Shown here piece after piece: positions 10,547 to 43,750 of a stretch of DNA of 64,000 bases. Source of the stretch: Macrostomum lignano (lineage: Eukaryota); contig NIVC01002558.1 in assembly GCA_002269645.1 (NCBI GenBank), forward strand, positions 1 through 64,000, read 5' to 3'. The translations under genes and the position numbers were made by a program. The notes under the pieces were generated by a model. It was not told where the DNA came from. It ran no database searches and worked only from the letters and a program-made list of their open reading frames with translations. Positions within the stretch are counted from its first letter, which is position 1, and each line of letters starts with the position of its first letter.

Positions 10547-11533
10547 CTATTCGAGATCTGCTTTTGGTAACAGTAATCCATTGCCCATAACGTTTGAATT
10601 TAAGAAAATTCCTGAACCTGCTTTTGGTCTCATTTCGAGATATAATCCGCTTCCGTCGTGTTTTTCAATGATATTAAAATCTTTTCCTAATTTATTAAAA
10701 ATTTTCTGAACAGCTGGTCTAAAATTGGATCCAATATTGTCAAAAAATCCTTTAGCTTTCTCACCCGTTTTTTCTAAAGTTTGACCAAATTCATGTAGTT
10801 TATCTGCTACAACTCCACTTCCTTGGGTTGTTCCTTTTAGTACCAAACCATTCCCGTGATTTGTTCCTTGCAAGAGTAAACCTTTTCCGGCTGCTAACCT
10901 AGCTTCTGCATTTCTTTTTTGCTCTGCTGTTGCTGAACTACTATTAATGGTATCAATAAGTTTCTGTTTGAATTGTGCGTCCTGCGTTATTTGCTGTCTT
11001 TGAAATTCTGCATCTCGTTTGGCTTTTTCGTCCGCAGCTTTTTTGTCATTTACTGCTTTTGCAATTCCAGCTGCTCCGCCAGCAACTCCTCCAGCTGCTC
11101 CAATTCCTGCAAAAATTATTGGGAGCAAAGCTGCAAGGGGTAAGATTCCCCCCTGTTTCGCTCTTAACTCTCCTAGCTGTTTTACATTATCATGAATTCT
11201 TTTTCCGGCTAAACCGACTGCTCCAGCTGCACCAAGTCCTAAAAGAAGCGGTAGAATGGGTAGTAATCCGCCGTCCTTTTTAGTGTGAGTCTCCATTAAA
11301 AATTTCACATCGGAGTCTGTCAACCTATAATTTCTGCCGCGATTCTTAAAGGATATTGGCCTTCCTTCTTGTGCATATTTTGCTGCGAGTTTAAATGTAT
11401 CGATGTCGTAGTCAAACTTTTTACCTAATCGATCCAATCTTTTTAACATTGTGTGGCTATGTTTATTATCATCTAGATCTAAAGTATCTACAATTTCTCC
11501 TATAAAATATAAGCGGTCGTTATCTGTGTCCAT
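10547..11533 (-). CDS. Gly-rich virion core/membrane-active precursor protein (adenovirus pX-like segments)
   Basis: GGLLPILPLLLGLGAAG and GGILPLAALLPIIFAGIGAAGGVAGGAAGIAKAV resemble the adenovirus pX C-terminus. Eight GG or GxG motifs followed by hydrophobic residues. Confidence 0.65.
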   Translation of the reverse strand: MDTDNDRLYFIGEIVDTLDLDDNKHSHTMLKRLDRLGKKFDYDIDTFKLAAKYAQEGRPISFKNRGRNYRLTDSDVKFLMETHTKKDGGLLPILPLLLGLGAAGAVGLAGKRIHDNVKQLGELRAKQGGILPLAALLPIIFAGIGAAGGVAGGAAGIAKAVNDKKAADEKAKRDAEFQRQQITQDAQFKQKLIDTINSSSATAEQKRNAEARLAAGKGLLLQGTNHGNGLVLKGTTQGSGVVADKLHEFGQTLEKTGEKAKGFFDNIGSNFRPAVQKIFNKLGKDFNIIEKHDGSGLYLEMRPKAGSGIFLNSNVMGNGLLLPKADLE

Positions 11534-11543
11534 TTTTATATTG

Positions 11544-11942
11544 TTAAAATTTCTTTAATCCTTTTCCACCTTTAATAGTATTTAACATTTTATTAAAATC
11601 CTGAATATCTTTATTACTTATTGGTGCGCTTTTCGTGGGGGTTTCTGTTGGTTGTGCGGCTTGTGCCAGCTTTAAATCTTTTATTGCATTTATTTGTGAG
11701 AGGGTGTCGTTAAAATCTCTCAATTTCTTTAGTTCTTCTGCCGCTCTAGCTGCTTCAATTCCGCCCTTTACGGCGTTGGTTATAGAGCCTGCTGCAGAGC
11801 CAGCTTGCCCTATAAGCCCCATATTGTCTTTAACAAAATTTGCTGCTGTTCCAACCACATCAAAAAGCCCCTCACCTCGGTATTCAACTGGGTCTCCTAC
11901 CTGCAATTCATTCAGATTTTGCATATGTGTAACGTGTGTCAT
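11544..11942 (-). CDS. Small virion core-like protein with an amphipathic segment after a GEG motif
   Basis: YRGEG-LFDVVGTAANFVKDNMGLIG... and C-terminal IKGGKGLKKF. Confidence 0.55.
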   Translation of the reverse strand: MTHVTHMQNLNELQVGDPVEYRGEGLFDVVGTAANFVKDNMGLIGQAGSAAGSITNAVKGGIEAARAAEELKKLRDFNDTLSQINAIKDLKLAQAAQPTETPTKSAPISNKDIQDFNKMLNTIKGGKGLKKF

Positions 11943-11980
11943 TTTTTGTTCTATTTTTAGTAACAGAAAAAGATTGTCTG

Positions 11981-12078
11981 CATTCCATTTAGACCAGATT
12001 TTAGACCAAATTTTTGAAAACGAAAACCAAAACGATAGTCTAGTTTTGTTTGGTCTAAAATCTGGTCTAAATGGAATG
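11981..12078. repeat. Perfect 30-bp inverted repeat with 38-nt loop
   Basis: cattccatttagaccagattttagaccaaa (11981-12010) is the exact reverse complement of 12049-12078. Confidence 0.95.
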
Positions 12079-12160
12079 TTGGGTGGGTAGGTGAGCTGAC
12101 TATAAATAGCTTCTATTCTTTCCGACCCTTCGCGCCTGCGGCGCGGGCAAGGGGTTATAG

Positions 12161-12431
12161 AGTAGTAGTGTATAAAAAGACGCTTCTAGATCAGACCTTA
12201 TTTTAATGACCGTTTTTATGGTCTTAAGAGGGGGGACGCGAGGGGGGTGTTGGGGAGTGTTTGGAAGTGTTGGGAAGTGATTTTTATTGTTAGGGGTGAT
12301 TATGGGTGATTAGATGTGTTAATGGTGTTTAGATGTGTTTTTTTATTTACCCCCCGTGTCCCCCCTCTAGACCCTTAAAACGGTCATTAAAAAAGTGCTC
12401 TGGGTCTAGAAGCGTCTTTTTATATACTACT
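12161..12431. repeat. Polinton terminal region with a nested, inverted ~85-bp copy of the terminus
   Basis: 12164-12246 (agtagtgtataaaaagacgcttctaga...ttttaatgaccgtttt...gaggggggac) matches the reverse complement of 12350-12431. Confidence 0.9.
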
Positions 12432-12851: not shown

Positions 12852-15441
12852 ATGGCCTGGCAAGACTACGCCGACGAGATCCGGTGGCTGGTGCGCACCG
12901 GGGCGCCAATCTCGGTCACGCAGCTGTTCTACTCGCTCGTGATGCCGACAACCCTGGCCTTCTGTGGCTACCTCGGCAAAGAGGAGCTTGACTCGGCCGG
13001 GCTGGCCATCTCAATCTTCCAGCTGAGCGTGGCCAATTTCGCCAGTGCGGTGCGCTGGGGCATCATGCCGTTCCTGGCGCACACCATGGCCGGCAGCAAG
13101 CCAGCTCGGGTTGGCATCTTCGTGCAGCGCGGCCTGCTTGCCTCCCTGCTGCTGGCCTTCTTCAGCTGGACTCTGGCCTGCAATTCGGCCAATCTGCTCA
13201 TCGCCACGGGCCAGGACCCGGCCATTGCGGTGAACACTGAGATGTACTTCCTGCTGCTCAGTCCGGGTTGCCTTGGCATCATCGCATTCAGAGCTCTAGT
13301 TGCTTATACTGACACGCTGGGCCGGCTGTGGCCAACTCTGCTGGTTCACGTGATCGGGTTCTTAGTTAACCTGCTGCTGCAGTACGTGCTGGTGCTGCAC
13401 ACGGACCTGGGCTTGGCCGGCTCGGCGATTGCTCTGTCTGTCACCCTGGTTCTGCTGGCCGTGTTTCAGGCCATCTTCATCTGGAGGCTGCGGCTGTACA
13501 AGGACACCTGGACGGGCTGGTCGCCGAGGGCCTTCCTGGGCTGGGGCAAGTTCTTCGGCGGCATGCTGCCCGCCATCGGGACCCAGACGCTGTGGATCTT
13601 CGGCACCGAGGTTGGCAATTTTCTAGCCGGACTGCTGGGCAAGTCGGAGATCGCGGCCGAGTCGCTGCTGTTCCAGATCAACTTCCTGGCCTTCCTGCTG
13701 CCCGTGGGGCTGGGCAGTGCCGTCATCGCCAGGGTGGGAGCTTACCTCAGGTGCGAATGGGGACTGGGGATCAAGCTTAGGGTTATTGTGGTGCACCAGC
13801 TGGGATCAAATTAGGGTTATTGTGGTGCACCAGCTAGGATCAAGCTTAGGGTTATTGTGGTGCACCAGCTGGGATCAAATTAGGGTTATTGTGGTGCACC
13901 AGCTAGGATCAAGCTTAGGGTTATTGTGGTGCACCAGCTGGGATCAAATTAGGGTTATTGTGGTGCACCAGCTAGGATCAAGCTTAGGGTTGTTGTGGTG
14001 CACCAGCTAGGATCAGGCTTAGGGTTATTGTGGTGCACCAGCTAGGATTAAGCTTAGGGTTATTGTGGTGCACCAGAGGTTCAATTAGGGTTATTGTGGT
14101 GCACCAGCTGATCAAATTTGGGTTGTTGTGGTGCACCAGCTGATCAAATTAGGGTTATTGTGGTGCACCAGCTGATCAAATTTGGGCTAAACCAACCTCA
14201 GCCAACAGGAGCCGGAGCGGGCCAAGCGGACCTCCCGCGCCAGCCTGCTGTTTATGTCCGTCACCGGCCTGCTGGTTGGCGGCATCTTCATGGCGCTACG
14301 GTTCCAGATTCCCAAACTGTACTCGCTGGACGCGGAGTCCACCAACCTGTTCGTGAGCCTTATGCCGTACCTGGCGGTGTACACCACTCTGCAGCTCATC
14401 GCCTATCCTTGCGTTGCCACCCTGAGAGCCTGCAATCACCATGTAGTTGCCATGGTGATCAACTTTATTGCCTACTATGTGGTAAGTGGGTCGATTTTTT
14501 GGTTGATTTCCCAGCAAACTTACTAAGTCAAATTCCATCGTTGCCCCAGTGAAAGATTCGAGTCCAGGACCTTCACTTCCCTAAGTGACAGATTCGAGTC
14601 TAAAAACTTTATTTCCATGTGAAGGATTCGAGTCTAGGACCTTCATTTTCATAATGAAGGATTCGAGTCCAGGACTTTCAAATTTCTATATTGAAGGATT
14701 CGAGTCCAGGACTTTCAAATTTCTATACTGAAGGATTCGAGTCCAGGACTTTCACATTTCTATATTGAAGGATTCGAGTCCTGGACTTTAAAATTTCTAT
14801 ATTGAAGGATTCGAGTCCAGAACTTTCATTTCTCCACGGATGGATTCAAGTCCAGGACCTTAGGCTTAATTTATATAGTGAAGGAATCGAGTCCAGGACC
14901 TACACCTAAGCGATTCTCAAACACTCAAAACGCAATCTCCTCTACCGCGACACAGGTGAGCCTCCCGCTGGGTGTCTCCCTGACCTTCGCCGCCGGCTGG
15001 GGCCTGCGAGGCCTCTGGGTCGGCTTCGTCTCGGCCTCGGCCACCTTCCTGGTGCTGCTGCTGCTGGCCATGCTGCGCTCCGACTGGCGCCGGCGCTCCA
15101 ACCTGGCGCACGCTGACGCCGAGTTCGAGACCGATGCGGAGGCTCCGCTGGCAGCCGGCGAGCGGGCGCCGCTGCTGATGGCCGAAGAGGACGACGCAGA
15201 GGATTGGCAGCTGCTGGATCGTCAACAGAAGCAGCGGCAGCAGCGAGGCAGCAGCAACCGCCAGGTTTGGTGGCCAGCAGTCCGCGCCAAGCTGCCAGTC
15301 CTGGGCGCGGCAGTTCTGGCGCTGCTGGCCTCGGCGACGATTCGAGTGGTGGCGCCGCCGCGGATTCCGCTGTACCCGATGGCGAATGCCAGCAGCTGGA
15401 ACTCGACGCTGCCTCCGGTAGCGACACTGACTACTAATTAG
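12852..15441 (+). CDS. SLC47A-like: MATE family multidrug and toxin extrusion transporter (SLC47-like); exons 12852-13750, 14202-14481, 14956-15441
   Basis: Hydrophobic 12-TM pattern with FCGYLGKEELDSAGLA, GRVGIFVQRG-type, EVGNFLAGLLG and ARVGAYL motifs. GT-AG junctions keep the frame (GAYLS|QQEPERAK; YYV|VSLPLG). Confidence 0.92.
13767..14180. repeat. Intronic minisatellite, ~39-bp unit containing TTAGGG
   Basis: Unit gatcaagcttagggttattgtggtgcaccagct(g/a)g. Confidence 0.9.
14550..14900. repeat. Intronic degenerate minisatellite, ~40-bp unit
   Basis: Repeated gaaggattcgagtccaggacttt core. Confidence 0.85.
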
Positions 15442-16510: not shown

Positions 16511-19142
<2,632 letters not shown>

Positions 19143-36147: not shown

Positions 36148-39026
36148 TCAGGCAGGATACACCAGCTCGCTGATGAAGGCATTCGAATAGCTCGGCAAAT
36201 CCAGCTGCTCGTTCGGCACTCGGATTGGCGATCTGAACGGATTAATCCGCTGAGGCGTCAGAGTCCCAATCCCTAATTTGTCGCACATCACGGCTGACAG
36301 CTCCATGCTGAACTCGCAATAGTCTGTCACATAGGTGCGAATGGCCAGCTTCTGTGCAATGAAAATTTTATATGGGAGGGGTGTCAAGTTTATACACTAC
36401 TGAAAGTAGGATAAATTAATTAACTAATAATAAAAATTTACCTTTAGAAACTCCAGCGTCGCCGGCCAAGAGATGGAGGCGGCAAAGCCGGCATTGAAAG
36501 CCACAATGAGGTCGGGTCTGGCTGGGCACGAGCTCTCTTCATCACCACTGTCGGTAATGCCATCCTGATGCTTTTGATTCAACAGTCCGGCGGCTACCTG
36601 GTGGTAGAGGCCTCTGTACACTGAGACACGAAATCTGCCGTCTAGCTCAGTGTGGACACTCTTGTGTACCGATGGGGACACTTCCTGGTTAGAGGAATGG
36701 CAAGGATAGACAGTTGATACAGGACTTACGTAGAACGGAAAACTTGCGTTTCCTAGAAAAGTTTTGAAGGCTGGTTTTACGCGAACACTGCAACACTGTA
36801 CCAGAGACTGTTTTCCAGAGACAGAGAGAAATAGACATCTTTTATTGCTATATTGAGTTTTTTAAGACTTGTCACACAACCGGCGAGAGGCATTGCTGCC
36901 CATTCCGCCAACTCCCCTGAGCAGGCACACAAGCGCGCGGATACGTACGCAGTCATACGCACAGGCACACACTCACACAGGAGTGTACATCGGCCCTGAC
37001 TTTATTTATCGTTAGGCATGTACACTTCACTGCGCCTTGGGGGTTGGCCCCCAAGGGTGTTAGTTGCACGAGCAGAGCCAAGCCGAGATTTCAATTCAGT
37101 CTCAAATTTATGCGACTGCACTTGGAATCGAGCCTGGGCCGCTGGCACATCAGAGCGCCGCGCCAGACCACTGGGCTACGGCTTCCCTTCAGACAAGCTT
37201 CAAAATAACTGTCTTTAACTTGAAGGGAATAAATTACTGTTAGATTTAAATTGGGGGTTGGTTGTGGGGTGGAGGCGCAATAAGAACGAGAGACGGGGGA
37301 GAGACTGAGCACGTGACCAGGGGTAAAAGGCACACAGACCAGGGGGCAGTAAAAATGAACGGTAGGAATATGCAGTTGAATTTTTGCGAACACACCTTGC
37401 CAACAAGCACCAGCCGGAAGCTGAACCCGGGCGCCAGTTTAGCCAGTTCGCACAGAGCCGGGATGAGTTCCACCTCCTTCTCGACGCCGATCAAGTGTAC
37501 AACAATCCGACGAAGTTGACAAGGCCGATTGTCACCGACTGTTGCAGTCAGCCGTTTGTAAGCGTCGGGAGCGTCAACGGGTAGCCGCTCGAACAGCAGG
37601 TGATAAAGCGTCAGCGGCCACTGCATGAGAACGCAGACTGGCGAGTCGGCAGGCAGCCCCCGCATCTGATAATAATCCGACCAGCTGGATATTCGAGGCG
37701 GCGGCTCCGTTGCCGACACAGTTGACGGCGCCTCGACGAGAACGGCGGCCTCGTCTGGCAGCGCAAACGGATCCGGGTCTGGCGCCAGGTCGCCCGGAAG
37801 CGGCACGCCGCCGATATCTGCGTCGTTGTCGTCGTCGTCAAACGGATGCGGATGGACGCCCAGCCAGGCGTAGCACTCGCGGCGCCACATGCCCCGGCCG
37901 AGAAGGCCGCGCTCCAGCAGAAAGCGGGACAGGCACTGCGGCGAGTACATAGACAATTAAGAGATTTGGGTGTCAACTAGGGGATTTGGATGTTGTTGGG
38001 AAGAGAGGTTATTTCTGCGCATGTTTTTCAATTAAAGATATTTATTTTCTTTATATTTTTTGGTTATTTTGATTAAAACGTACTTTGGTCAGCCCCAACC
38101 CCTGTTTTGAGTGTGCACGACACCCACCCCCCTATTACGTGGGTGCAGGTAGACGCTCACAATATAAAGTTACGGTCTCCCGCTCCAGTGAGAGTGCATA
38201 TGGTTTTTTGGTTGTGGCGTTTTGGCCTTTGGCCATAAAGACAATCTGCTTTTTTCTGAGGATTCAAGTTATTTTCATAACTGTAAAACAACGTAACAAC
38301 AGGTGTCAATTAGGGGATTAGGGTGTCAATTAGGGGATTAGGGTGTCAATTAGGGGATTAGGGTGTCAATTAGGGGATTAGGGTGTCAATTAGGGGATAT
38401 GGGTGTCAATTAGGGGATTAGGGTGTCAATTAGGGGATTAGGGTGTCAATTAGGGGATTTAGGTATCAATTAGGGGATTTGGGTGCAAATTAGGGGATTT
38501 GAGTCTCAATTAGGGGATTTAGATGTCACTTTTGGGTTTTGGGGTGACGATTTTAAGATTTGGGTGTCAATTAGGTGATTAGGATGTCAATTTTTGGATT
38601 TGGGGTGTTGATTTTAGGATTTTGGCTGTCAATTAGGGGATCGAGGCGTTGAATCTGAGATAAGCTGCCAAATGAAAGATTAAAGCACCAAACTGGAGAT
38701 TGCAGCGCCAAATTAAGGATCAACAAAGCCAAATAAAGGGTTGGGTATAATTCAGTGGATAATTCGATTTACCTGAGAATCAAAGGTATCAGCCGTAGTG
38801 ACAGATGCAAAACCAAATGGCAGCTCAGCTAGCGCTGGGGCCCGCTGTCTGAACAGGCGCAGCCTGGCACACCAGGCTTTGTGTGCCAGGCCAGGGTTAT
38901 CTGGCTGGTTGGCGTGCCGCCTCTGACAGGCTTCACTGCAATAATAGACACAGCGGCACTGGCTGCACTGCAGGGCGCTGCTTCGATTTAAGAGGCCTGC
39001 ACAGGTGGAACACTGTGCAAAGAAGG
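36148..39026 (-). CDS. ZMYND15-like: MYND zinc finger protein of the ZMYND15/MSS51 family; exons 39026-38773, 37935-37396, 36684-36442, 36351-36148; upstream exon(s) not found
   Basis: CSTC...CSQCRCVYYCSEACQRRH...HKAWC (MYND), WSDYYQMRGL...SP...WPLTLYH, VHLIGVEKE, PDLIVAFNAGF and INPFRSPIR...SYSNAFI. Splice junctions are in frame. Confidence 0.9.
38305..38640. repeat. Intronic minisatellite, 20-bp unit
   Basis: (gggtgtcaattaggggatta)n. Confidence 0.92.
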
Positions 39027-39766
39027 CTGATGAAAAAGGATTAGAGATCATCCTCTTTGTTCTTTAAAGTTAAGGCAGCAAGTGAATGAAGTCATTCATT
39101 ACAACTATGAACTTGAACTTAATTGTAAATTATAGACTTTTTGGACTTAAGCTATGCATTGTACATGTGAAAAAAGCTTACTAAATAGATTATTCCTAAA
39201 GACTTGGTACCAAAAATAGTATATATATTTAGTGTATTTAGATATATATATTTATCTGTGAATTTAAACCTGCTTAGGGTAATTGGCAGAATAGGTAATA
39301 TTTGCCTAGTGCTAATTCTTATTATTATTATATAATTGTCAGATAGCTTTGTTATGCTTGATAAATTAAATTCTGATATTGGCCACTTAATAGAATTCTT
39401 AGATTATTATTTGTTGTTAGATTTATAATTCAAATGCACTGCAGCATCATGGGTTAAAGTTATTTAATTTACTTTCTCTCTCTCTCTCTTTTTTTCAGTT
39501 AGAATTGAAAAAAAGAATATAAAGATACATAGTAAACTATCTCTCTAAATTATATAATCACCATTTTGGCTAAAATGCCTATAGCCAAACTGGTTTATGG
39601 GCAAAATGGACTATGGGCAAGATGGTCTTAGGGCAAAATGTTCATGGCCAAAATGGTTTGGGGGCAAAACAACTAGAATTCATTTAATCTTTACCTTTCT
39701 TCTTCTTAATCCCTTCTCACCTAGTCCAACTCTATTTTATAGCACAAGTTGCATTATTTTACAGTA

Positions 39767-40553
39767 GGCTCATTCCATATAAGATGGACATATTTGGAAA
39801 ATAGAAAAAAGTCAATATTTTTGCTTGCCATTGCCTAATTAGCCTATTTTTTTTACCAAATGTTTATATTGTGCAATATATACAATCTAAGAATAAAGGA
39901 ATGGTAAAATGTTGGATTAGTATGTTATCAATTGGCAAAAAGTCATTTTTGTAAAAATTTGGACATTTTTCGAAGCAAAAGACATCATTAAGATTTTGTA
40001 CCTTTTAAAAACAAATAGAAAGCTTTTGAAGGTTGAAACAAACTATAGATAAAAGTATAGTACTTGCATCATCAGATAAAAGCATTGGTGACCAAATAAT
40101 CTATTATATTTTTAATGTATTAGTACCTCAAAGTTACTGAATTGACAGAAAAAAATATGTTACGACCATAATGTTACGACCATAAGGCTGCCTTTTCTTT
40201 TGTATCTTTGTTGCCTTTTGAGTTTATATATTCTAATAAAAGAGTATGATTTCTAAAGATGTTCTTAGTCAAATTTTAAAAATGTATTGCAAAATATCAA
40301 AAATGAAAAATGTTATAAGACTTTTACCTTTTAGTTTCTATATGTCAAAAATCCTGTCGTTACGACCATAAGTGTCATTTAAGGTTTAATAGCATCTATA
40401 CTAATGATGATATCTATATGAAACTCTATAAATATATTCTAGACAAAATAATCTTTCATTTAAAATATTGGTTTAGTATATTCTATTATTAGATTTCATT
40501 TTATAAGTAAAAATAACCTGTCATGTTACGACCATGCTTATATGGAATGAGCC
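39767..40553. mobile_element. Non-autonomous TIR DNA transposon with 4-bp TSD
   Basis: Perfect 17-bp TIR ggctcattccatataag / cttatatggaatgagcc, flanked by AGTA on both sides. Internal gttacgaccat motif occurs four times. Confidence 0.75.
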
Positions 40554-40704
40554 AGTACAGTTATTACTGTACTAGAATTTTACTATATATTCTCAAAGAT
40601 GACATTTTTTTATGTTCTTAAGTATACTAGATTTGGTAAAAGTAACAAAAATTGGACTTGACTCAGGATAAGGAAGATAATTTGGGACTATTTTATTATT
40701 TTTA

Positions 40705-40930
40705 TTTCCACATACTAAAAATGTGATGTTTGTTTGTTTGTACGAAATCAATTAGAGAAAAAATGGCTGGACCGATTTTCATGAGACTTGCACTGTTCGA
40801 TCAGAAATTTTCCCGTGACGGTACATGCATCGTGGCTAAGAAATTGCTCGATGCTAAAGGCATTAAATATTCGAAAAACATGCTTTTTTGCAAAGGTCAA
40901 GCAAACTTTTCGACTTGAAATGCATTGTAA
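40705..40930 (+). mobile_element. Probable non-autonomous Helitron/Helentron-type (HINE-like) fragment
   Basis: tccatacta...(gttt)n followed by ggctggaccgattttcatga, a motif arrangement typical of invertebrate rolling-circle non-autonomous elements. The 3' end was not identified. Confidence 0.4.
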
Positions 40931-41334
40931 GAATGCTAAGAGAAAAATTGACTGGTAGAATCTGATTCTGAAATAGATTGCATCATTACTGAATTGTAAC
41001 TCCGACTTGAATTGCGTCACAGCAGTGAAAATGCAGTGTGGAAGCGTAGCACCAGACTTGATTTAGATTGCGTAACTATATTGTTAACTGATACTGACTG
41101 ACTGAGAAATTGATTATGTCATAAATGCCTCGTGTGATTTACTCTATGCTTGCAGTTTTGAAACTTATAATTATAAGTGCTAAAATTCATATTATCAAAA
41201 CGATGAGAGCTAGCCTAGAGGTAAACAGACTGAACTGCTGAATGCAGGGACGATGGTTCGAATTTTGAAAGAGTGGAGTTTTTTTAATTTTTTAATTAAA
41301 GCTTTTTAACGCCAAGACAACTAAAAAATCATGG

Positions 41335-42920
41335 AACCGTCATGTAAAAAATCATAAAAGCGTCATGTAAAAAATCATAGAAGCGTCATGTAAAAAATCA
41401 TAGAAGCGTCATGTAAAAAATCATAGAAGCGTAATGTAAAAAATCTTAGAAGCGTCATGTAAAAATCATAGAATCGTCATATAAAAGCATAGAAGCGTCA
41501 TATAAACAATCATAGAAGCGTCATGTAAACAATCATAGAAGCGTCATGTAAACAATCATAGAAGCGTCATGTAAACAATCATAGAAGCGTCATATAAAAA
41601 GCATAGAAGCGTCATGAAAAAATCATAGGAGCGTCATGAAAAAATCATAGAAGCGTCATGTAAACAATCATAGAAGCGTCATGTAAACAATCATAGAAGC
41701 GTCATGTAAACAATCATAGAAGCGTCATGTAAACAATCATAGAAGCGTCATGTAAAAAATCATAGAAGCGTCATGTAAAAAGCATAGAAGCGTCATGTAA
41801 ACAATCATAGAAGCGTCATATTAAAAATCATAGAAGCGTCATATAAACAATCATAGAAGCGTCATGTAAACAATCATAGAAGCGTCATGTAAGAAATCGA
41901 AGAAGCGTCATATAAAAAGCATAGAAGCGTCATATAAACAATCATAGAAGCGTCATATAAAAAATCATAGAAGCGTCATGTAAAAAATCATAGAAGTGTC
42001 ATGTAAAAAATCATAGGAGCGTCATGAAAAAATCATAAAAGCGTCATGTAAAAAAGCATAGAAGCGTCATGAAAAAATCATAGGAGCATCCTGCAGAAAT
42101 CGTAGAAGCATCATGAAATAATCATAGAAGCGTCATGTAAAAAGCATAGAAGTGTCATATGAAACTCATAGAAGCGTCATTTAAAAAAATCATAGAAGCG
42201 TCATGTGAACAATTATAGAAACGTCATGTAAAAAATCATTGAAGCGTCATGTAAACAATCATAGAAGCGTCATATAAAAATCATAGAAGCGTCATGTAAA
42301 CAATCATAGAAGCGTCATGTAAACCATCATAGAAGCGTAATGTAAAAAATCATAGAAGCGTCATCTAAAAATCATAGAAGTGTCATGTAATGAATCATAG
42401 AAGCGTCATGTAAACAATCATAGAAGCGTCATGTAAACCATCATAGAAGCGTAATGTAAAAAATCATAGAAGCGTCATCTAAAAATCATAGAAGTGTCAT
42501 GTAAACAATCATAGAAGCGTCATGTAAAAAATCATAGAAGCGTCATGTAAACTATCATAGAAGCGTCATGTAAACCATCATAGAAGCGTCATGTAAACAA
42601 TCATAGAAGCGTCATGTAAAAAATCATAGAAGCGTCATGTTAAAAATCATAGAAGCGTCATTTAAAAAAATCATAGAAGCGTCATGTAAACAATCATAGA
42701 AGCGTCATGTAAAAAATCATAGAAGCGTCATGTAAAAAGCATAGAAGCGTCATATAAAACTCATAGAAGCGTCATTTAAAAAAATCATAGAAGCATCATG
42801 TAAACAATCATAGAAGCGTCATGAAAAAATCATAGAAGCCTCATTAAAAACTAATGAAAGTGTCATTTAAAAAATTAAGAAGCATCATGGTAGAATAAAA
42901 GAAGCGTCATGTCAGACATG
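41335..42920. repeat. Satellite array, 24-bp unit
   Basis: (aatcatagaagcgtcatgtaaa[a/c]a)n. Confidence 0.96.
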
Positions 42921-43750
42921 AAAGGTGTCATGTAAAAATTAAATGAAGCTATAGTGCTGGGCTAGGGAGAAAAACTGAGACGTCAAGGCTCACAGAGAAT
43001 AACTGAGATTACGGGGGTGGGGTTTCTGAGATGTCAAAGCAAAAGTCAGAAGCTACTTCAAAGTTCATGTACTTTACTCAATTTTTTTATTACATTTTTT
43101 GTTGGCTCGCCACAGGGGGGGGCGCTGATAGAAGAAGAGTCATGTAAAAAATAAAAGTAGCACAATGTATACATAAAAGAAGAGTCATGTCGAAGTTAAA
43201 AGATTCCTTTGGGAATTGCTACAATGTCAAAGCTTGGTGGAAATCGTTATAGTGCTGTGATTCTTAAAGAAGGAATCACTAAAATGTCAAGGCTTAGGGG
43301 AGAAGAATTGCTGAGATTTCAAGACTTTAGGTTGGGTTAAAGTTAGGTTTAGGTCAGGTGTGGGTTGAGGGTTAGATTTTATCGGGTTTCAAGGTTAACG
43401 GGGGGTTTTTTAGATTTCAAGGTTTATGGGGGCTATCGCTGACATGTTAAGGCTTACGGGGGAAATAGCTGAGATGTCAAGGCTCACGGGGGTATAAATG
43501 AGATTTCAAGGCTAAAGTCAGAAGCTACATGTAGTTTATTGAAAACTTTTTATTACATTATTTGATGCCTCCTCAGGGGAGGGATCGCTGATAAAAAAAG
43601 CGTAATGTAAAAAATAAAAGAAGCTTCATGTCGAAGTGAAGAGATACATTTGGGAATCCCTACAATGTCGAGGCTTGCAGGGAATTGCTATAATGCTGTA
43701 GTAGTGCTATAATGACTCTTAGAGAGAATTATTACTGAAATTTCAATGCT

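What the first reader, a model, noticed from the sequence alone, without database searches (positions are those of the whole stretch)
10547..11942. Core precursors with repeated Gly cleavage-like motifs and candidate membrane-lytic peptides
Seen: ORF 10547-11533 has eight G-G or G-x-G sites followed by hydrophobic residues (DGG-LLP, QGG-ILP, GKG-LLL, GNG-LVL, GSG-VVA, GSG-LYL, GSG-IFL, GNG-LLL). ORF 11544-11942 has GEG-LFD and GGKG-LKK. Known: adenain-family proteases cut after xGG or xGxG-like sites; adenovirus pX carries GG-ILPLLIP..AAIGA, and pVI releases an amphipathic helix. The segment GLFDVVGTAANFV also resembles aurein/citropin-type lytic peptides. Inferred: a protease-processed core and entry system matched to the protease at 1847.
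Basis: partly seen in the sequence, partly recalled or inferred. Interest (0 to 1): 0.7.

Follow-up and report, generated by a model that had tools for sequence, protein, structure and literature searches.

The report
Protease-cut entry proteins of flatworm Polinton
Two genes at the end of a virus-like transposon (a Polinton) in an animal genome, probably a flatworm's, encode proteins with conserved Lys/Arg-x-Gly motifs that are likely cut by the element's own protease to release predicted membrane-binding helices, as in adenoviruses; the kind of system is already described, but the basic-residue cutting code and a fixed five-residue tail appear not to be.

Summary
All ten motifs are present; both ORFs are on the minus strand. 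They end a high-copy Polinton (at least 124 and 150 matches in the genome) and are under purifying selection (ratios 0.10, 0.14).

ORF328 has 8 Gly motifs against 0.76 expected. It is an adenovirus-pX-like protein with a doubled hydrophobic module, no PLA2 domain and no mu-like basic peptide. ORF132 has homologues in two other Polinton families of this genome and in databases. All 25 aligned keep an N-terminal GxG plus amphipathic helix; 23 end in GxG plus exactly four residues.

Both motif classes share K/R/H two residues before the first Gly (147 of 160 GG sites; 65 of 67 ORF132-family sites).

pX-like and membrane-active adintovirus core proteins are already in print. The basic-P4 code and the pVI-like layout with a pVIc-like pentapeptide were not found in my searches. 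No cleavage or lysis is shown. Verdict: new variant of a known kind.

The parts
10547..11533 (-). ORF328: pX-like internal virion precursor (N-terminal domain, two pX-like modules, coiled coil, amphipathic helices, C-terminal GxG-hhL repeats)
11279..11533 (-). N-terminal domain (residues 1-85), predicted helix-helix-beta hairpin-helix; no fold match found
   Evidence: pLDDT about 90 for residues 31-80
11267..11278 (-). K-D-G-G site (residues 86-89), predicted cut after GG
   Evidence: K86, G88, G89 invariant in 8 of 8 close homologues; 56 of 56 copies
11153..11266 (-). pX-like hydrophobic module 1 (residues 90-127)
   Evidence: mean hydrophobicity 0.77, not amphipathic
11147..11158 (-). K-Q-G-G site (residues 126-129), predicted cut after GG
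   Evidence: G128, G129, P132 invariant in 16 of 16
11039..11146 (-). pX-like hydrophobic module 2 (residues 130-165)
   Evidence: Pfam PF05829 residues 127-158, E=0.01
10838..10894 (-). two lineage-specific GxG-hhL repeat units (residues 214-232), variable among copies
   Evidence: moment 0.42-0.52, shuffle p 0.017-0.027; helices 242-265 and 272-284 predicted at low confidence
10550..10660 (-). three C-terminal GxG-hhL repeats (residues 292-328)
11544..11942 (-). ORF132: pVI-like layout (24-aa leader, GxG, amphipathic helix, long helix, linker, helix, GxG, five-residue tail)
11817..11876 (-). GEG site (residues 23-25) and amphipathic helix starting at Gly25
   Evidence: G23 and G25 are the only invariant columns in 25 sequences; 13-mer moment 0.41, p=0.005
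11547..11573 (-). K-G-G-K|G-L-K-K-F: terminal site and pentapeptide tail
   Evidence: GxG-[LF]-xxx-stop in 23 of 25; tail identical in the second Polinton family
1847..2285 (+). C5/adenain-type cysteine protease, split over two frames in this copy; unbroken in many natural copies
   Evidence: (H64, D79, C116 invariant in 4 of 4)
1..12431 (.). Polinton/Maverick element, right part: ATPase, penton-like, protease, fibre-like, accessory ORFs, broken pPolB, ORF328, ORF132, terminus at about 12431. The contig starts inside the element.

Best explanation
ORF328 and ORF132 are conserved Polinton genes that likely encode internal virion precursors, predicted to be cut by the element's own adenain-type protease at a basic-P4 code, (K/R/H)-x-G-G|hydrophobic and (K/R/H)-x-G-x|G, which would free hydrophobic pX-like peptides and Gly-initiated amphipathic helices likely used to breach host membranes at entry. 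Shown: the genes, their context in a Polinton, purifying selection, motif enrichment, conservation, the shared basic residue at -2, and helix amphipathicity. Inferred, with rough odds: packaged virion proteins 0.9; GG sites cut by this protease 0.8; at least some GxG sites cut at Gx|G 0.7; the released ORF132 helix is membrane-active 0.55; the terminal pentapeptide regulates the protease like adenovirus pVIc 0.15-0.2. ORF132 would work like adenovirus pVI (leader removed, helix exposed, short tail released). ORF328 would work like the C-terminal part of pX joined to a second amphipathic segment, not like the DNA-condensing mu peptide.
For: Enrichment 8 vs 0.76; 212 vs 24 in 158 homologues. K/R/H at -2: 147 of 160 GG-hh-P sites, 98 of 212 GxG-hh sites, but 27 of 143 control GxG sites (background 0.18); -1, -3, -4 are weaker or absent. 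ORF132 family: 65 of 67. G23 and G25 are invariant over four groups only 17-33% identical. [KRH]xG(G/xG) occurs 12 times in 875 aa of the five precursor proteins vs 4 times in 4431 aa of 11 other element proteins; 2 of those 4 sit at a PLA2-integrase junction, and the same motif follows the PLA2 domain in 6 of 6 PLA2-bearing pX homologues. Non-synonymous/synonymous ratio 0.10 (56 distinct copies) and 0.14 (49). All three Polinton families that carry an ORF132 homologue also carry a protease, and one homologue (P0127) is a protease-pX fusion. Precedents: adenain GG|X and GX|G (PMC4246237), mavirus MVP (PMC6048507), adomavirus LO6 found in low-molecular-weight virion bands (10.1101/341131).
Against: No cleavage, virion or lysis data. 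Only 4 of 8 ORF328 sites and 1 of 2 ORF132 sites in this copy have a basic P4; the ORF132 N-terminal site is Y-R-G-E-G. The residues after GxG are strongly conserved ([LI][YF]LxP), more than a protease needs, which suggests a binding role. In mavirus two GXG sites were not cut (PMC6048507). Within the genome, motif glycines are no more constrained than other glycines (ratio 0.083 vs 0.10 in ORF328; too few changes in ORF132). The ORF132 13-mer has net charge -1 (range -1 to +1 in the family), and the moment is moderate (0.41). The ORF132 homologues fall into only four groups, so the counts are not independent. The family-1 protease itself has no Pfam or PDB hit; its C5 assignment is by motifs and by 27% identity to a sister protease that does hit. 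Family 3 has an ORF132 homologue but no pX gene was detected in 4 of 4 stretches.
Confidence: 0.6

Rival explanations
1. The GG sites are cut, but the GxG-hh(L) motifs are mainly uncut docking repeats (short beta-strands or turns) that tether the proteins to the inner capsid surface or to each other.
For: Strong conservation after the motif (+3 Leu in 158 of 212; +5 Pro in 104); the last repeat lies a median 10 residues from the C-terminus in 91 proteins; repeat number varies among copies and homologues; P4 is basic in only 46% of GxG-hh sites in the pX family.
Against: The basic residue sits in the same register as at the GG sites and is absent from control GxG; 65 of 67 in the ORF132 family; the motif marks PLA2 domain junctions. 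Docking and cutting are not exclusive.
Confidence: 0.2
2. The proteins are processed as proposed, but the amphipathic helices serve assembly (scaffolding, capsid lining or egress), and membrane breach is done by the PLA2-like domain carried on the integrase ORF.
For: The helices are neutral to slightly acidic at their start; a PLA2-like domain is encoded elsewhere in the element; fold searches gave only generic coiled coils.
Against: The helix begins exactly at the predicted cut and is amphipathic in 25 of 25, the arrangement that adenovirus pVI uses. The family-1 PLA2-like match is weak (E=0.031) and its activity is untested.
Confidence: 0.13
3. The sites are cut by a different Gly-Gly protease, either the OTU-like domain described for Polinton pPolB or a host Ulp/SENP or deubiquitinase, not by the gene at 1847.
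For: Polinton pPolBs carry a predicted active vOTU protease (PMC11161782 passages); many clan CE proteases read GG|X (PMC6048507).
Against: The dual GG|x and Gx|G register is typical of adenain and MVP; a protease-pX fusion exists (P0127); all three families keep a C5-type protease. I did not test the OTU domain of this element.
Confidence: 0.05
4. The motifs are a by-product of Gly-rich composition and local duplication, with no function.
For: ORF328 is 12% Gly; bare GG/GxG is not enriched; sites 216 and 227 are dispensable repeats.
Against: Enrichment, conservation across proteins 17-33% identical, position-specific basic residue, purifying selection.
Confidence: 0.02

Closest known systems
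Adintovirus (animal Polinton) PLA2X, GasderminX and Cupiennin genes; 'Macc' class (PMC8502044; 10.1101/2024.03.25.586562)
   Same: Polinton genes for predicted membrane-active core proteins with a domain like adenovirus pX, beside an adenain gene. Six of the 158 homologues are PLA2 plus pX fusions.
   Different: ORF328 has no PLA2 domain and no gasdermin hit, and has two pX modules; the PLA2-like domain sits on the integrase ORF. The passages I read give no cleavage code for adintovirus proteins. Whether ORF132 is their Cupiennin gene could not be tested.
Adenovirus pX (pre-mu), PF05829, cut by adenain (AVP, clan CE family C5)
   Same: GG followed by a hydrophobic Pro-containing module; weak but recurrent Pfam match.
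   Different: Below the Pfam cut-off; no Arg-rich 19-aa mu peptide; P4 is K/H/R instead of M/I/L; 328 vs 79 aa.
Adenovirus pVI and its cofactor peptide pVIc (PMC4246237)
   Same: Layout of ORF132: short leader, cut, amphipathic helix, and a second cut releasing a C-terminal peptide that begins Gly-hydrophobic; in this copy it is basic and ends in Phe, matching the pVIc hot spots Gly1', Val2', Phe11'.
   Different: No sequence similarity detected; the tail is 5 residues, not 11, lacks the conserved Cys10', and ends in Asp in the family-3 group.
Adomavirus LO6 (10.1101/341131)
   Same: pX-like and pVI-like core protein, found in low-molecular-weight bands of purified virions, with potential adenain motifs.
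   Different: One fused gene with (M/I/L)xGxG or L(L/R)GG motifs, in a circular fish virus; here two tandem genes with basic P4.
Mavirus virophage MCP C-terminal domain cut by MVP (PMC6048507)
   Same: Repeated GG|X and GX|G cuts releasing short peptides and a candidate amphipathic helix.
   Different: There the sites are on the capsid protein. Here the three MCP candidates carry no [KRH]xG(G/xG) site and the sites are on separate proteins.

Membership tests
Polinton/Maverick (adintovirus) | retrovirus-like (rve) integrase | tested here: met
   Sister copies: PF00665 E=1.1e-7, 32.5 bits vs cut-off 32.6; lies beyond the start of this contig
Polinton/Maverick (adintovirus) | A32/FtsK packaging ATPase | tested here: met
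   PF04665 E=3.3e-7, above cut-off, in a sister copy; window 1-770 aligns to it
Polinton/Maverick (adintovirus) | C5 (adenain-type) protease | tested here: met
   His64, Asp79, Cys116 invariant; 27% identical (E about 1e-10) to the family-3 protease, which passes the PF00770 cut-off; no direct Pfam hit
Polinton/Maverick (adintovirus) | protein-primed family B polymerase | tested here: inconclusive
   1304-aa ORF in a sister copy with B-family-like motifs recognised by eye (recalled); Pfam gave only Endonuclease_7
Polinton/Maverick (adintovirus) | [quoted passage not shown] | tested here: inconclusive
   490-aa and 290-aa ORFs labelled by size, position and 20-24% cross-family identity; no Pfam hit; not folded
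Polinton/Maverick (adintovirus) | terminal inverted repeats and target-site duplication | not tested
   Only the right end is in the window: sharp end at 12431 with varied flanks, ending ACTACT; the two ends were not compared
Adenovirus pX (PF05829) | hydrophobic C-terminal module after GG | tested here: inconclusive
   16.2 bits vs cut-off 25; 8 of 11 homologues hit, best 24.1; an Atlas cluster with 20% Adeno_PX members scores 0.89
Adenovirus pX (PF05829) | Arg-rich mu peptide between two cuts | tested here: not met
   Predicted ORF328 fragments have net charge -1 to +4
Adenain substrates | P4 = Met/Ile/Leu | tested here: not met
   0 of 160 GG sites and 11 of 212 GxG-hh sites; K/R/H instead
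Adenain substrates | Gly at P2 with GG|X and GX|G registers | tested here: inconclusive
   Sequence pattern fits; cleavage is not testable here
Adintovirus PLA2X | N-terminal PLA2 domain fused to pX | tested here: not met
   No PF08398 hit in ORF328; homologue P0011 has it; a PLA2-like domain is on the integrase ORF
Adintovirus GasderminX | gasdermin C-terminal domain before pX | tested here: inconclusive
   No gasdermin Pfam or fold match; the paper's sequences were not visible
Adintovirus Cupiennin | homology to the published Cupiennin gene set | not testable with these tools
   The supplement of PMC8502044 is cut before the sequence files
Adenovirus pVI | leader, cut, amphipathic helix | tested here: met
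   Pattern in 25 of 25; layout only
Adenovirus pVI | sequence homology to pVI | tested here: inconclusive
   No pVI family among the 25 of 29 Pfam families shown at E<=1; no PDB hit; no profile-profile test against pVI was possible
Adenovirus pVI | 11-residue pVIc with Cys10' | tested here: not met
   Tail is 5 residues without Cys in 23 of 25
Aurein/citropin peptides | homology to amphibian antimicrobial peptide families; cationic helix | tested here: inconclusive
   No such family listed; 13-mer net charge -1; the resemblance is recalled, not tested

The most novel reading that the evidence does not exclude
ORF132 is the Polinton counterpart, and possibly the ancestor, of adenovirus protein VI. 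A single small protein would give both the membrane-lytic helix and a minimal five-residue pVIc-like peptide that switches on a maturation protease reading a basic-P4 code. The same code would also release a PLA2 domain from the integrase, making the adenovirus maturation-and-entry circuit a Polinton invention.
Probability: 0.17. Interest if true: 0.72.

Novelty: new variant of a known kind. Interest (0 to 1): 0.42.

Why it matters
The substrates and specificity of the protease that Polintons encode have not, in the papers I searched, been defined, and virions were still unobserved in the papers I read. This locus gives concrete, cheap predictions: a two-register cleavage code with Lys/Arg/His at P4, exact peptide ends, two candidate membrane-binding helices, and a fixed pentapeptide that might act as a protease cofactor. 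Confirmation would support Polintons as entry-competent non-enveloped viruses and would bear on the origin of adenovirus pVI, pX and pVIc. The broad idea is already published, which caps the surprise.

Tried and rejected
ORF132 alone found no database homologue and only Atlas scores of 0.80; homologues appeared only after building a three-family profile.

Locus scans: 0 relatives among 598-600 candidates each in viral and metagenome contigs with two ORF328 alignments. So gene neighbourhoods outside this genome were not seen, apart from one distant contig found with the protease.

Structure: AlphaFold models are poor (mean pLDDT 58.5 and 52.9). Foldseek had no match at E<=0.001 in PDB or BFVD, and VIA gave only coiled-coil matches, best Z 6.5. 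The N-terminal domain was not searched alone. PDB sequence searches gave only E>=0.026 amphipathic or coiled-coil look-alikes (HA2, ApoC-I), which I rejected as generic.

ORF132 and ORF328 profiles are not homologous (probability 2.6%). The SAD_SRA hits in 7 of 25 members are most likely a charged-helix artefact (not tested).

Expression: no RNA holder listed; four laid runs are contigs of uncertain kind; no evidence either way.

Rejected: cutting after GxG (register); the adenain P4 rule; a mu-like DNA-condensing role; aurein homology.

Full report
OBSERVATION. The two ORFs are as described, on the minus strand: ORF132 (11942 to 11544), 10 nt, ORF328 (11533 to 10547), then the broken polymerase gene. 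All ten motifs are present. In ORF328, GG or GxG followed by two hydrophobic residues occurs 8 times vs 0.76 in 5000 shuffles (p=0.0002). None of the 15 other proteins tested is enriched, ORF132 included. Bare GG/GxG (12 vs 9.0) and the strict adenain motif (1 vs 1.7) are not enriched.

CONTEXT. Window 1-12431 is the AT-rich right part of a Polinton; the contig begins inside it. Unaltered sister copies add an MCP candidate, an rve integrase (E=1.1e-7) and an A32 ATPase (E=3.3e-7). The end is sharp at 12431. The genome holds at least 124 matches to ORF328 (122 of 595 candidates scored) and 150 to ORF132 (150 of 272). The protease at 1847-2285 is split over two frames here but unbroken in many copies. 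It keeps His64, Asp79 and Cys116. It has no Pfam or PDB hit itself, but is 27% identical to a sister-family protease that passes the Peptidase_C5 cut-off. Three database proteins related to the sister families are labelled Macrostomum lignano, and one matches, by eye, a sister-family ORF over 110 aa, so the host is probably that flatworm. Earlier scan notes also call it a flatworm.

REAL GENES. Of 60 loci chosen among full-length matches, 56 and 49 distinct copies gave 232 synonymous / 82 non-synonymous variants for ORF328 (ratio 0.10) and 77 / 38 for ORF132 (0.14). The pX region is the most constrained (0.046). The choice of full-length copies biases towards intact frames. Motif glycines are no more constrained than other glycines (0.083 vs 0.10).

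ORF328. Pfam Adeno_PX matches residues 127-158 weakly (E=0.01); 8 of 11 homologues also hit, best 24.1 bits vs cut-off 25; the Atlas points to animal and Preplasmiviricota clusters, one with 20% Adeno_PX members. Two searches gave 158 homologues (150 of 169 hits were listed in the second). 144 of 158 have GG-hh-P, 12 have two or more, and 6 are PLA2 fusions. The layout is: folded N-terminal domain, KDGG, hydrophobic module, KQGG, hydrophobic module, coiled coil, two variable GxG repeats, GSG, amphipathic helices (moment 0.42-0.52, p about 0.02; weaker in some homologues: 7 of 11 reach p<0.05 for the first 18 residues), and three GxG-hhL repeats. Sites 216 and 227 are missing in 4 of 4 closest homologues. 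No predicted fragment has a net charge above +4, so there is no mu-like peptide.

ORF132. A search with the single sequence failed. Searching the genome with a distant pX homologue found a second Polinton family whose pX gene is directly preceded by an ORF132 homologue (28% identity, E=1e-7) ending in the same five residues. A third family has another homologue, its own protease and a separate PLA2 gene, but no detected pX. The three-way profile found 25 database proteins. I aligned 22 of them, leaving out the three labelled Macrostomum, with the three genome ORFs. G23 and G25 are the only invariant columns. The 13 residues from Gly25 are amphipathic in 25 of 25 (p<=0.044), with net charge -1 to +1. 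23 of 25 end in G-x-G-[LF]-x-x-x-stop; the two exceptions have divergent ends. The sequences form only four groups, 17-33% identical between groups, so the independent count is about four.

THE CODE. K/R/H lies two residues before the first Gly in 147 of 160 GG-hh-P sites (M/I/L: 0), in 98 of 212 GxG-hh sites, and in 27 of 143 control GxG sites, at a background of 0.18. In the ORF132 family it is 65 of 67. A common K-x-G frame means Gly at P2 in both classes, the two registers published for adenain, (M/I/L)XGG|X and (M/I/L)XGX|G (PMC4246237), and for mavirus MVP, GG|X and GX|G (PMC6048507). The motif occurs 12 times in 875 aa of the five precursors and 4 times in 4431 aa of 11 other element proteins. 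Two of those four mark a PLA2-integrase junction, and the motif follows the PLA2 domain in 6 of 6 PLA2-pX homologues. Against this: in this copy only 4 of 8 ORF328 sites and 1 of 2 ORF132 sites have a basic P4, and the residues after GxG are conserved enough ([LI][YF]LxP) to suggest docking as well.

MECHANISM (inferred). The two proteins would be packaged inside the capsid. The C5 protease would cut them during maturation, freeing two hydrophobic pX-like N-termini, short G-h-h-L peptides, and two Gly-initiated amphipathic helices. On uptake the ORF132 helix, perhaps with the ORF328 segments and the PLA2-like domain, would breach the endosome. The ORF132 tail starts Gly-hydrophobic and here ends in Phe, like the pVIc hot spots Gly1', Val2', Phe11' (PMC4246237), but is 5 residues long, has no Cys, and ends in Asp in family 3. 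A cofactor role is a long shot. Overall confidence 0.6; rivals are uncut docking repeats (0.2), an assembly role for the helices (0.13), another protease (0.05), and chance (0.02).

WHAT IS KNOWN. Starrett 2021 (PMC8502044; passages; part of the supplement, cut before the sequence files, which may bear on ORF132's identity) describes PLA2X, GasderminX and Cupiennin as membrane-active adintovirus proteins with pX-like domains. Buck 2024 (10.1101/2024.03.25.586562; passages) names the class Macc. Welch 2020 (10.1101/341131; part 2 of 4 and passages; bioRxiv supplements are closed) reports adomavirus LO6 as pX/pVI-like, in low-molecular-weight virion bands, with adenain motifs. I read passages only of PMC4246237, PMC6048507, PMC8097293, PMC7998265, PMC10748475, PMC3671162, PMC5803895, PMC9683012 and PMC11161782. 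Eight searches listed no paper whose title, abstract start or read passages define Polinton protease specificity, a basic-P4 code or a pVIc-like tail; subscription papers are not covered. The scan's index has no look-alike of this sequence; it has similar Gly-Gly precursor ideas for giant viruses, which I did not test.

VERDICT. It works like the adenovirus pX/pVI/adenain system and belongs with the published adintovirus Macc genes. It is not a pX, PLA2X or pVI member by the tested criteria (no mu peptide, no fused PLA2, no 11-residue Cys tail). New variant of a known kind; interest 0.42. Novel case (pVI counterpart with a minimal cofactor peptide): probability 0.17, interest 0.72.

Noticed in passing
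L108:1432-2721 (G000:C87); L030:6161-7420: A PLA2-like domain (PF08398 E=0.031) is in one open frame with the rve integrase, with K-F-G-L-G at the junction; family 2 has R-F-G-L-G. Most of 150 listed matches lie in open frames of about 400 aa. One search listed three papers; the passages read from two do not describe this fusion.
   Followed up: partly
P0127, P0123: Database proteins in which a C5-type protease is fused to a pX-like protein (protease first in P0127; after PLA2-pX in P0123). They may be real fusions or read-through artefacts.
   Followed up: partly
L058:2882-3487 (IMG/VR contig): A virophage- or PLV-like contig has, near its protease, a 201-aa ORF with L-E-G-A-G followed by an amphipathic-looking stretch that aligns weakly to the ORF132 N-terminal site (hhalign 12.9%, E=0.002). 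P4 is Leu there.
   Followed up: partly
window 11971-12431: The element end carries an inverted repeat (12201-12243 / 12350-12392), and contigs of 4 of 4 runs show a form that skips 11971-12124, so this terminus looks partly duplicated as a hairpin.
   Followed up: no
window 8468-9529 (-): An Endonuclease VII domain (PF02945 E=3.3e-7) lies inside the polymerase reading frame.
   Followed up: no
G000:C1830:8800-23300 (L043, L044, L053): Virion genes of two different Polinton families lie next to each other here (two ATPases, two MCP candidates, two ORF132 homologues), possibly a nested or chimeric insertion.
   Followed up: partly
P0017, P0035, P0056, P0060, P0153: Two to four GG-hh-P modules also occur outside the ORF328 clade (12 of 158 proteins have two or more), so pX module duplication seems to recur.
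   Followed up: partly
window 4668-5324 (+): 218-aa ORF with a hydrophobic, probably transmembrane, middle; family 3 has a similarly built ORF. No Pfam hit.
   Followed up: no
window 12852-14526 (+): Host ORFs just beyond the element look like a MATE-type membrane transporter (by eye, recalled).
   Followed up: no
window 17155-18588 (-): 477-aa Gypsy-type LTR retrotransposon integrase ORF (by eye).
   Followed up: no
window 39000-43000 and elsewhere: A second AT-rich stretch (GC 0.28-0.33) with 23-nt tandem repeats; the rest of the window is rich in minisatellites.
   Followed up: no
G000, one search list: Many copies lie within about 15 kb of a contig end, as expected if the assembly breaks at this repeat.
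   Followed up: no
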